Shown one piece after another: positions 47,855 through 50,800 of a stretch of 50,924 bases of DNA. The stretch comes from Candidatus Izemoplasma sp. Lineage in GTDB: Bacteria; Bacillota_I; Bacilli_A; Izemoplasmatales; Hujiaoplasmataceae. The stretch lies in contig JAIPGD010000001.1 of assembly GCA_021736305.1 (NCBI GenBank), positions 62,001-112,924 of the forward strand, given 5' to 3'. Position numbers: made by a program. Positions within the stretch are counted from its first letter, which is position 1. Each line of letters starts with the position of its first letter.

Positions 47855-50800
47855 CGGGGGTTCGAATCCCTTCCGAGTCGCCATTATAAATATAAAGTCA
47901 GTTTTCTGACTTTTTTTATTGGCCTGGTAGCTCAGCAGGATAGAGCAACGGCTTCCTAAGCCGTCGGTCGGGGGTTCAAATCCCTTCCAGGTCGCCATAA
48001 GGCCCGGTAGCTCAGTTGGATAGAGCAGTAGCTTCCGGAGCTAAAGGTCGGGGGTTCAAATCCCTTCCGGGTCGCCATTTAAAGCAGAATACACATTTCT
48101 GCTTTATTATTTTTAAAAAAAATAACCACCTAAGTGGTTATTTATATTTTTTTACATCACTTTTCTTAAGACTAAATACTTTATTTGTCATTTTAAGCAC
48201 TTTTTTAACATAATTATTTTGATCAAAAGAGAAAGCCATTGCATGTTTTGAATCTTTAATTGATAAATAATCTTTTGTATCTGTATTAATTGCTTCAAAT
48301 AATTCTTTTGACATAGCTTCACTAATTGCACGGTCTTTTTCACTATGAATAATTAAAATTGGAATAGTTGATTTTTCTATTACTTTTAAGGGGTTAATTT
48401 CAGAAAGAAAAAACTTATGGAATATAAATGTATAAAAGTTTATGCCAAACAAAAAGATTAACAAAGGTTTAAATCTAGTTGATAGTTTTAATGTAGCCTT
48501 CAAACTAGTAAACCCTGATTCTAAAACCAATAAATTTACATTTTTACTTTCTTTAAATTGAGTAGCTAAAACGCTAGTTGCTGCGCCCATTGAAACACCG
48601 TGTAATAATATCTCAATTTTCTGTCCATAATTTCTAGTAGCGTAATGTAACCAGTTTTTCATATCGTATTTTTCATAATGACCCATAGATGTAAATTTTC
48701 CTTCAGATTTTCCATGGCCTCTAAAATCAACTAGCAATACTTTAAACCCTAAATCAGAATACATTTTACAAATGGGAATTAAATCATAGCTACTTGATTT
48801 ATAACCATGCAGTACAAAAGCTAATTTTTCTGACTTTTTATCATGAGAAGGAATATATATGCCATGTAGTTTTAAATTATCATAAGACTTAATATAGATA
48901 TCTTCTTTAGGGATTTCTTTATACCAGTTATAAGTTTCTTTATTTAATTCAGCTTCAGGATCAAACAACTGAATTGAGTGATGCCTGAAATTAACAAATA
49001 ATTTACGATAATAAAAATATGCTATAATAAAATATAGACTTATTAATAAAACTATTCCAATTGCCCAATACATCCATGTCTCCATAATCACCACTCCTAC
49101 TAATTATTTTATCAAATATTAGGAAATAAAAAAGCTATTTTTTATAAAAGAATTTAAATAAAAACTTAAAACGATTTTTATTGACTTATACTCAATTATT
49201 GTGTATAATATTTTCGTATGCATACCGCGCAGAATTGGTTCTAAAAAGTTTGTTAACTTACCAACGATGGCGAGTCTTAATATATGAGGAGGTGCAGGAT
49301 TATGTATGCAGTTATTGAAACTGGTGGAAAGCAAGTAAAAGTTGAAGAAGGACAAGAAATTTTTGTTGAAAGATTAGCAGTTGAAGCAGATCAAGAATAT
49401 ACTTTTGATAAAGTATTAATGATTGGCGGAAAGAAAGCTAAAATTGGAAAGCCTTATGTTAAAGGCGCAACTGTTACAGCTAAAGTAGTTAAAAATGGTA
49501 AAGCTAAAAAAGTTATTGTTTATAAATACGAGCCTAAAAAAGATTATCATAAAAAACGTGGTCATCGACAACCATATACAAAGCTTACTATTGAAAAAAT
49601 AAATGTCGAATAATACATAATTTTAATTTGGAGGTGTTTTAAGTGTTACTTAATTTAAATATACTTGAACTTATGGCTTCGAAAAAAGGTGTTGGATCAA
49701 CTAAAAATGGTCGTGACTCAGCAGGTCGTCGCCTTGGAGCTAAACTAGCAGATGGTCAAAGCTGTAAAGCTGGATCAATTATCTTCCGTCAAAGAGGAAC
49801 TAAAATTCATCCTGGTGAAAACGTAGGAATCGGAAAAGATGATACATTATTTGCTAAAGTTAATGGAATAGTAAAATTTGAAAAAATTGGTAGAAACAAA
49901 AAACAAGCAAGTGTTTATCCACAAGCTTAAGAATAAAAAGCAGGAAATATTCCTGTTTTTTTTATGTTTCAAGCAAAATAAGATATAATATATTTGGTGG
50001 TATAATGAAACTTATAAAAGAAAAATTTATAAAATATTTTCAAAATGAACCTGATGAATATTTATTTAAACCTTTAAACATTAAATTGTTTGGTGATTTA
50101 ACGTATTTTTCGTTGTCCTTTACAACTAATATCGGTATAAAAGCCGCTTACCGTATTGATGATGATATCATGATTAAGGTTATCTTAGATGATGAGTTGT
50201 ATATATTAAATAAAAATAAACAAAACTTTAATAACAAAATCATCATGGATTTACAAAAAATATATCAATTTTTCATATATAAATATGAAAACAATAAAAA
50301 AGGAATGAATATCCTAATTGATACAAACTTTAATGATTATCCATCAACTCACCTAAAGTATATGTTTATTGAGTTAATGTCAAAGATGTTTTCGGAAAAA
50401 TTATACAATAAAGATTACTTAATTATTATTGAAGGATTATTTAAAGAAGACTATAATCTACATTATAATGAATACACATTAATGTTTAACAATAAAGTAA
50501 ATACACTTATTTATTCTGATAAAGAGAAACATGAATTTATTGATTATCAATTAAATGATTTTCTCTTTATGTTTCTTCCGATAGAAGATAAAATATCAAG
50601 GAAAGAAACGCAAATACAAATGTTTTATTTAGTTGAAAAACTTAACACTGCATTTCCAGATAAAAACTATAGTAATTTAAGCTTTGATGATTATATAGAA
50701 TTTATTGGAACTGATGCTGAAAAAAATATTTTATTACATATAATCTATGAATTTTATCGCTTAGAAAAAGCTAAACAAGCAATTCAATCAAATGATTATA

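What a model noticed while it worked through the whole genome (the two positions that open the first line are those of the whole stretch)
49302..49930. bL27 keeps its N-terminal extension in an order that lost the Prp protease
rpmA encodes a long bL27 ([16 protein letters not shown]) with the ribosome binding site before the extension, but no prp lies between rplU and rpmA or elsewhere, and this holds order-wide. The reading is that another protease, or a weak second start at the Met that replaced the P1 Phe, makes mature bL27. It breaks the printed rule that every long-L27 species encodes Prp and shows a natural route around a proposed antibiotic target.
Evidence so far: Prp over the cut in 1 of 158 order genomes, 0 of 70 in the family. 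Extension read in 29 of 29 bL27 loci, with a GGAGG-type site before its start in most. P1 is Met in 21 and Glu, Thr, Cys or Leu in 8, so an internal start cannot explain all. No Prp-like hit or motif in six frames here.
(Added by a program. Inside this text positions count along the whole contig: contig position 62,001 is position 1 of the stretch shown here. "Call 12" and the like, gene names such as g00115 and contig names such as C1 are that model's own, and its searches are not shown. The text may have been shortened before it was handed on; [...] marks where a part breaks off. The agent that wrote the report below was given it as the finding of a first reader that could run no searches.)

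Follow-up and report, generated by a model that had tools for sequence, protein, structure and literature searches.

The report
Ribosomal bL27 leader kept without Prp
An order of wall-less bacteria (Izemoplasmatales) lacks the protease Prp yet keeps a conserved, rewritten 11-residue tag on ribosomal protein bL27, which is likely trimmed off by general-purpose enzymes instead; this breaks a printed rule and suggests the tag has a job of its own.

Summary
Confirmed and extended. rplU and rpmA lie 29 nt apart with no prp. Across the order (Izemoplasmatales) Prp scores in 1 of 158 genomes, away from its bL27 locus and in a phage-like context. 137 of 138 readable bL27 loci carry a leader behind a strong SD site; 131 are exactly 11 aa, under purifying selection (dN/dS 0.31 vs 0.88). 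Outside the order, 291 of 380 sampled genomes have Prp; all 89 misses are one family whose bL27 is short (17 of 17 read). The Prp motif is gone (0 of 137 vs 75 of 78). An internal start is poorly supported: no SD before the Met (0 of 95), no GTG there (0 of 138). Best reading (0.5, inferred): a housekeeping protease cuts after the hydrophobic P2 residue and an aminopeptidase (MetAP for Met, M42 for Glu) exposes Ala. The cutter is unidentified; Lon fits best, TldD/E and FtsH partly. No protein data. A non-Prp bypass is already in print for one pneumococcal strain, so the antibiotic angle is not new; the order-wide loss was not found in my searches or in earlier scan notes.

The parts
49181..49209 (+). 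sigma-70-type promoter (TTGACT-17-TATAAT, 11 of 12) of the rplU-rpmA operon
   Evidence: consensus scan; function not shown
49212..49287 (+). L21 leader RNA (Rfam RF00559)
   Evidence: 53.2 bits over gathering 36
49302..49613 (+). rplU, bL21
   Evidence: PF00829 E 5e-40
49614..49642 (+). 29-nt spacer where prp lies in relatives; holds the rpmA SD site GGAGGTG (49630-49636)
   Evidence: sequence; controls 332-434 nt with Prp
49643..49675 (+). 11-codon bL27 leader, GTG start, P2 Leu, P1 Met (ATG 49673-49675)
   Evidence: dN/dS 0.31
49676..49930 (+). predicted mature bL27 (ASKKG...), first about 20 residues predicted disordered
   Evidence: PF01016 E 3e-35; model pLDDT
49935..49961 (+). terminator-like hairpin closing a two-gene operon

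Best explanation
The order lacks Prp but keeps a rewritten, selected 11-residue leader on bL27, which is likely translated and then likely removed in two steps by housekeeping enzymes. Step 1 (inferred): a general protease takes the hydrophobic leader and cuts after P2 (Cys, Leu, Phe or Met in 132 of 137). Step 2 (inferred): an aminopeptidase removes the last residue, methionine aminopeptidase where it is Met (Met-Ala is its textbook substrate, recalled), the M42 glutamyl aminopeptidase where it is Glu, exposing the Ala that reaches the peptidyl transferase centre. The cutter is not identified; Lon is my first candidate (about 0.2 alone), then FtsH and TldD/E. The leader is probably kept for a function of its own (timing of bL27 entry, or turnover of free bL27), since where P1 is Met a 30-nt deletion would give the short form and none of the 137 complete loci shows it.
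For: Shown: loss of prp; leader with SD in 137 of 138, 131 of length 11; coding signature: dN/dS 0.31 vs 0.88 for the 30 nt upstream and 0.066 for mature bL27 in 56 within-genus pairs, nucleotide entropy 1.4/0.54/1.47 by codon position; Prp determinants lost (P3 Gln plus P1 Phe 0 of 137 vs 78 of 78). P1 behaves as a residue constraint, not a start codon: 96 ATG, 0 GTG, 0 Ile, while Ile/Val fill 36-89 of 131 at P10, P9, P7, P5; Glu arose in six genera, three of which also hold Met members. Leader more hydrophobic than controls (GRAVY 1.34 vs 0.90). Enzymes at hand: Lon, FtsH, MetAP, M42, M29, TldD/E and others are shared by G000 and the reduced G107 (Lon, FtsH, MetAP named there by motif or by eye); full M42 in 61 of 64 genomes >=90% complete, including the Glu genera tested; Lon in 5 of 5 and FtsH in 4 of 5 genomes that lack TldD/E. 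Lon cuts after Phe/Leu/Ala, gives mostly 10-11-residue products and binds exposed hydrophobic stretches (PMC11986505, passages). Precedents: relaxed-specificity Rrp rescues a prp deletion (10.64898/2026.08.10.744006); m-AAA trims MrpL32 (PMC5438985).
Against: No protein data; neither cut is observed. No enzyme tracks the loss of prp: TldD/E is also in 146 of 290 genomes outside the order and is not found in 9 of 158 inside, 4 of them >=90% complete; genus g34 lacks a full M42 in 3 of 3 and has shorter leaders with P1 Leu. Lon normally degrades its substrates wholly and prefers Phe; the m-AAA spacer is about 35 residues against about 20 here; TldD/E geometry (>=15 unfolded residues, PMC5810440) would over-trim a free precursor. 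Housekeeping enzymes do not rescue the canonical leader: S. aureus bL27 slows E. coli and prp could not be deleted in D39. The fixed length of 11 suits a dedicated enzyme as well.
Confidence: 0.5

Rival explanations
1. One dedicated endopeptidase, unrelated to Prp and not yet recognised, binds the conserved P11-P4 strand and cuts directly at P1|Ala with a pocket for long unbranched residues (Met, Glu, Leu, Gln).
For: Length fixed at 11 in 131 of 137 and alternating hydrophobic pattern under selection; repeated Met to Glu change with no Ile or Val at P1.
Against: No unfamiliar protease stood out among the soluble members of the 639 proteins shared by G000 and 940 kb of G107 (judged by eye, membrane proteins not listed) or among conserved neighbours of the operon; no second substrate with the leader in G000.
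Confidence: 0.2
2. The leader is not removed, or only partly; these ribosomes tolerate it or run with a displaced bL27 tail.
For: No processing enzyme found; the leader is selected as a peptide; E. coli survives without bL27.
Against: The mature-type A(S/T)(K/H)KG start is kept in 137 of 137; uncleavable bL27 is lethal in S. aureus and no structure shows residues before A(S/H)KK; constraints at P1 and P2 look like a processing site.
Confidence: 0.12
3. A second, weak start at the P1 Met makes short bL27; the long form is a by-product or is degraded.
For: ATG or TTG at P1 in 99 of 138; databases hold both a 94-aa and an 84-aa call for one species.
Against: No SD before the ATG in 0 of 95; strong SD upstream in 137 of 137; no GTG at P1; 39 of 138 have no start-capable codon; true short forms put the SD next to the Met (17 of 17).
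Confidence: 0.1
4. A Prp too divergent to detect sits elsewhere in the genome.
For: Prp is small and variable (mean column identity 32%); structure-level search of the proteome was not possible.
Against: Pfam found Prp in 291 of 291 genomes of all other families outside f22, weakest E 2e-5; custom profiles find none; no Prp-like protein among 118 small Cys+His proteins of G000 by eye; the Prp motif has decayed.
Confidence: 0.05

Closest known systems
Long bL27 plus Prp (MEROPS C108, PF04327), rplU-prp-rpmA operon of Firmicutes (PMC9405229)
   Same: Same operon, leader before A(S/H)KK, similar hydrophobic N-terminal strand, SD before the leader.
   Different: No prp in the operon or genome; leader 11 aa, motif (D/N)(L/I)Q(F/L)F absent in 137 of 137, P1 mostly Met or Glu.
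Rrp (SP_1145), Ntn protease that rescues a prp deletion in S. pneumoniae TIGR4 (10.64898/2026.08.10.744006)
   Same: bL27 maturation without Prp by a less specific protease.
   Different: Rrp is a strain-specific, mobile back-up beside an intact prp and a canonical leader; here the loss is fixed over an order and the leader itself has changed. No proteasome-family hit over cut-off in G000.
MrpL32 maturation by the mitochondrial m-AAA (FtsH-type) protease (PMC5438985)
   Same: A general ATP-dependent protease trims the N-terminus of a ribosomal protein; FtsH is present here.
   Different: 71 residues removed, stop set by a zinc domain about 35 residues away; here 11 residues and about 20 unfolded residues; no activity shown.
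TldD/E leader trimming of microcin B17 (PMC5810440)
   Same: Sequence-tolerant removal of an N-terminal leader; pair found in 149 of 158 order genomes with the HExxxH site in G000.
   Different: Equally common in Prp-bearing neighbours, missing in some near-complete members, and its reach does not end at the Ala.
Short bL27 without Prp (E. coli; family f22 of the same class)
   Same: No prp, rplU next to rpmA.
   Different: There the leader was lost with prp and the SD lies before the Met (17 of 17); here the leader stayed.

Membership tests
Long bL27 / Prp system | N-terminal extension before A(S/H)KK with its own start | tested here: met
   137 of 138 loci
Long bL27 / Prp system | Cleavage motif (D/N)(L/I)Q(F/L)F before Ala | tested here: not met
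   0 of 137 vs 75 of 78 controls
Long bL27 / Prp system | prp between rplU and rpmA | tested here: not met
   gap 31-86 nt in 134 of 134 loci with rplU
Long bL27 / Prp system | Prp encoded anywhere in the genome | tested here: not met
   1 of 158, on another contig than bL27, among small ORFs with weak phage-family hits
Long bL27 / Prp system | Leader removed before ribosome function | not testable with these tools
   needs protein mass data
Short bL27 (E. coli type) | SD site directly before Met-Ala | tested here: not met
   0 of 95 vs GA-rich sites before the Met in f22
Rrp-type rescue | Ntn/proteasome-like protease in the genome | tested here: inconclusive
   PF00227 best E 0.04, under cut-off, G000 only; Rrp itself was not used as query and may not match this profile
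m-AAA / MrpL32-type trimming | FtsH present | tested here: met
   G000 by motif; 4 of 5 others
m-AAA / MrpL32-type trimming | About 35 residues between mature N-terminus and folded domain | tested here: not met
   about 20 in the model; PMC5438985
TldD/E leader trimming | Intact pair in every member | tested here: inconclusive
   149 of 158; 58 of 62 near-complete genomes; misses may be assembly gaps or real
TldD/E leader trimming | Cleavage of this substrate | not testable with these tools
   needs an assay with a free N-terminus

The most novel reading that the evidence does not exclude
Izemoplasmatales run a Prp-independent bL27 maturation pathway, by limited proteolysis with Lon/FtsH plus aminopeptidases or by a new dedicated protease, and keep the leader because it is an assembly checkpoint or degron in its own right; that would give a bacterial counterpart of mitochondrial MrpL32 maturation and answer why Firmicutes carry the extension at all.
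Probability: 0.35. Interest if true: 0.85.

Novelty: new variant of a known kind. Interest (0 to 1): 0.64.

Why it matters
Two papers state that every long bL27 comes with Prp, and the 2026 preprint says the reason for the extension is unknown. This order separates the two: the leader stayed under selection after the protease left, although a short deletion would have removed it, as happened in family f22. That argues for a role of the leader beyond being cut, and it is testable: cultured members exist (PMC10470597), and one mass spectrum of ribosomal bL27 settles whether and where it is cut. For drug work it adds a second, lineage-wide case that Prp is replaceable, but in non-pathogens.

Tried and rejected
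ClpP (the Pro-x-Met|Ala leaders recalled its propeptide): not found in G000 or 5 others. Proteasome/HslV family: none over cut-off in G000. TldD/E as the specific replacement: no co-distribution. Complex prediction of TldD, TldE, Zn and bL27 1-45 from G107: no answer, score 0.15, no evidence either way. Weak Prp hits in G117 and G020 are FMN-binding lipoproteins; the G147 hit (E 0.006) was not examined. Operon neighbours are radC-like, a GNAT, galactokinase-like, hydrolase and oxidoreductase genes by eye; none is order-wide. Other ORFs with the leader: none among 2,683 SD-backed starts in G000 (next score 3.8 vs 24.1), bL32 is unextended; one degenerate pattern found 0 viral contigs. AlphaFold gives no structure for residues 1-31. 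The bL21+bL27 tree (81 sequences) is too short to fix the order's root; it places f3 with two outgroup families. RNA runs are contigs only, so no start, strand or level. Literature: nine searches; none listed a paper on bL27 or Prp in this order; one search returned prion papers. Wall et al. 2015 and 2017 were not read, only cited through others; no supplements were read.

Full report
The locus. The window holds a two-gene operon: promoter-like site 49181-49209 and terminator-like hairpin 49935-49961, L21 leader RNA 49212-49287, rplU 49302-49613 and rpmA 49643-49930. The 29 nt between them hold GGAGGTG, 8 nt (from GGAGG) before a GTG that opens [16 protein letters not shown]. G000 (95.75% complete) has no Prp by Pfam at E<=10 or by a custom profile with filters off. 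Contigs from RNA libraries of close relatives cross the same junction.

Who it is. Exact look-up of order-type bL27 proteins returned the names Xianfuyuplasma coldseepsis, Ca. Izimaplasma bacterium HR1 and Ca. Izemoplasmatales bacterium, with a 94-aa and an 84-aa call for one species. PMC10470597 (passages) places cultured strains in the order Izemoplasmatales and mentions neither L27 nor Prp in its main text.

How far it holds. Prp is over cut-off in 1 of 158 order genomes. That gene (G157) lies on another contig than bL27 among small ORFs, two with weak phage-family hits, and that genome's leader ends in Leu. A profile from 27 Prp sequences of neighbouring families adds no real hit in 158. 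bL27 was found in 141 of 158; I read 138, leaving out 3 partial matches. 137 carry a leader with an SD site; 131 are 11 aa, the others 8-12; rplU stop to Ala is 31-86 nt in all 134 with rplU on the contig. Controls: 78 of 78 other Firmicutes loci (best hits of a scan that covered 2 of 64 parts; two order-type loci among the 80 set aside) have a 332-434 nt gap and Phe at P1; 20 loci from 12 neighbouring families have Phe in 19 and Leu in 1. In a class sample Prp is in 271 of 289 genomes outside the order, in a phylum sample 291 of 380 (the samples overlap and both stayed within the same class). The misses are family f22, whose bL27 is short in 17 of 17 read, and one genome in which bL27 was not found either. 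So the printed rule holds around this order and fails inside it. Kin are not independent: this is probably one loss.

Is the leader translated? Very likely. Median SD pairing is -13.2 kcal/mol before the upstream start (137 of 137 at or below -5) and -0.9 before the internal ATG (0 of 95). In 56 within-genus pairs dN/dS is 0.31 for leader codons 2-11, 0.88 for the 30 nt upstream read in frame and 0.066 for mature bL27; second codon positions vary least. Synonymous change is also somewhat lower in the leader (0.35 vs 0.47), so some constraint is on the RNA.

What changed. P3 Gln with P1 Phe is in 78 of 78 controls and 0 of 137 here. The N-terminal strand M-hydrophobic-hydrophobic-(N/E/D)-hydrophobic-(N/Q/H/R)-hydrophobic-hydrophobic is kept. 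P2 is Cys 67, Leu 42, Phe 19, Met 4 of 137; P1 is Met 96, Glu 24, Leu 11 of 138. Against a 10-residue relative (L078, MLFELNLQFF) a leader such as MLFEINIQKCM aligns with one extra residue; whether that residue is P3 or the Met cannot be settled, but Phe at P2 (19) against P1 (1) favours an inserted Met. P1 has no GTG and no Ile codon in 138, although both are one step from ATG and GTG starts this gene in 32 of 137; Glu, two steps away, occurs in six genera. This points to a residue read by an enzyme, not a start codon.

Mechanism. Removal is inferred from the unchanged mature-type start and from the lethality of uncleavable bL27 in S. aureus (PMC9405229, section 1.3 and passages). I looked for the enzyme. 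ClpP is not found in 6 genomes; no proteasome-family hit passes in G000. G000 and 940 kb of the reduced G107 share 639 proteins; among the soluble ones I recognised Lon, TldD/E, three PepF, M42, M29, PepP, MetAP, S9, an M16 pair and DJ-1 (six checked against Pfam, the rest by eye or motif) and nothing unfamiliar. TldD/E is in 149 of 158 but also in 146 of 290 neighbours; by the reach given in PMC5810440 (two sections and passages) and 31 predicted unfolded residues it would cut past the Ala of a free precursor. Full M42 is in 61 of 64 near-complete genomes, not in the three of genus g34. Lon is in 5 of 5 and FtsH in 4 of 5 genomes without TldD/E. Lon cuts after Phe, Leu, Ala and yields mostly 10-11-mers (PMC11986505, passages; ALFVM in PMC12994072, passages), which fits a cut after P2; it fits Glu at P1 badly, and it usually destroys its substrate. 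I therefore commit to cut-and-polish (0.5): a general protease cuts after P2 and MetAP or M42 removes the last residue. It explains the Met excess without GTG, the repeated Glu, and the hydrophobic P2. All of this is inference. Rivals: a dedicated unknown endopeptidase (0.2), retention (0.12), internal start (0.1), hidden Prp (0.05).

Against known systems. It descends from the long-bL27/Prp system but fails three of its tested features, so it is not a member. It would work like Rrp rescue (10.64898/2026.08.10.744006: abstract, introduction, results 1-4 in part, discussion and passages), where a relaxed protease gives cleaved bL27 in a prp deletion; that preprint repeats the rule, says the role of the extension is unknown and already notes that Prp is a weaker drug target. 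MrpL32 trimming by m-AAA (PMC5438985, passages) is the other precedent, with a longer spacer. PMC13450312 (passages) gives the bL27 N-terminus a gatekeeper role and does not mention Prp.

Novelty and score. None of nine paper searches listed this exception; subscription papers, including Wall et al., are outside what I read, and supplements were not read. Earlier scan notes: 0 for the full word set; the 8 shown of 80 for 'Prp protease L27' concern phage Prp and bL32 leaders, which prompted. New variant of a known kind; interest 0.64: a clean, lineage-wide break of a printed rule that makes the role of the leader testable, held back by the lack of protein data and of a named enzyme.

Noticed in passing
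window 50005-50924 (+, open end): Gene after rpmA has no Pfam hit but resembles galactokinases by language-model features (0.93); relatives have an intact-looking galK here. Possibly a decayed or repurposed GalK.
   Followed up: partly
order loci, e.g. L019 downstream of rpmA: A GNAT-like gene (named by eye) follows rpmA in 66 of 138 loci over 21 genera; link to bL27 untested.
   Followed up: no
L001:1501-1890 (G157): The order's only Prp (130 aa, with an insertion) lies among small phage-like ORFs in a host whose bL27 leader lacks the Prp motif; probably element-borne.
   Followed up: partly
genus g34 loci (L201, L203, L212, L213, L216-L218): Leaders of 8-11 aa ending in Leu before ASHKG; no full M42 in 3 of 3 and no TldD/E in 3 of 9 genomes. 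May use another route or be losing the leader.
   Followed up: partly
L002:1324-1764 and L341:1327-1785: FMN-binding lipoproteins whose first strands score weakly against the Prp profile (E 3e-4, 1e-2), a source of false hits.
   Followed up: yes
G000:C21:4428-16081: ftsH, tldE-tldD and an M32-like carboxypeptidase lie within 12 kb; many order genomes hold two or three TldD/E pairs and three M42 paralogues, suggesting peptide catabolism.
   Followed up: no
window 47807-48074: Three tRNA genes in tandem, by anticodon all Arg (read by eye).
   Followed up: no
window 49643 and genera g1, g2, g5, g6, g11: rpmA starts with GTG in 32 of 137 loci, all in family f1, unusual for a ribosomal protein gene; may lower bL27 output.
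   Followed up: no
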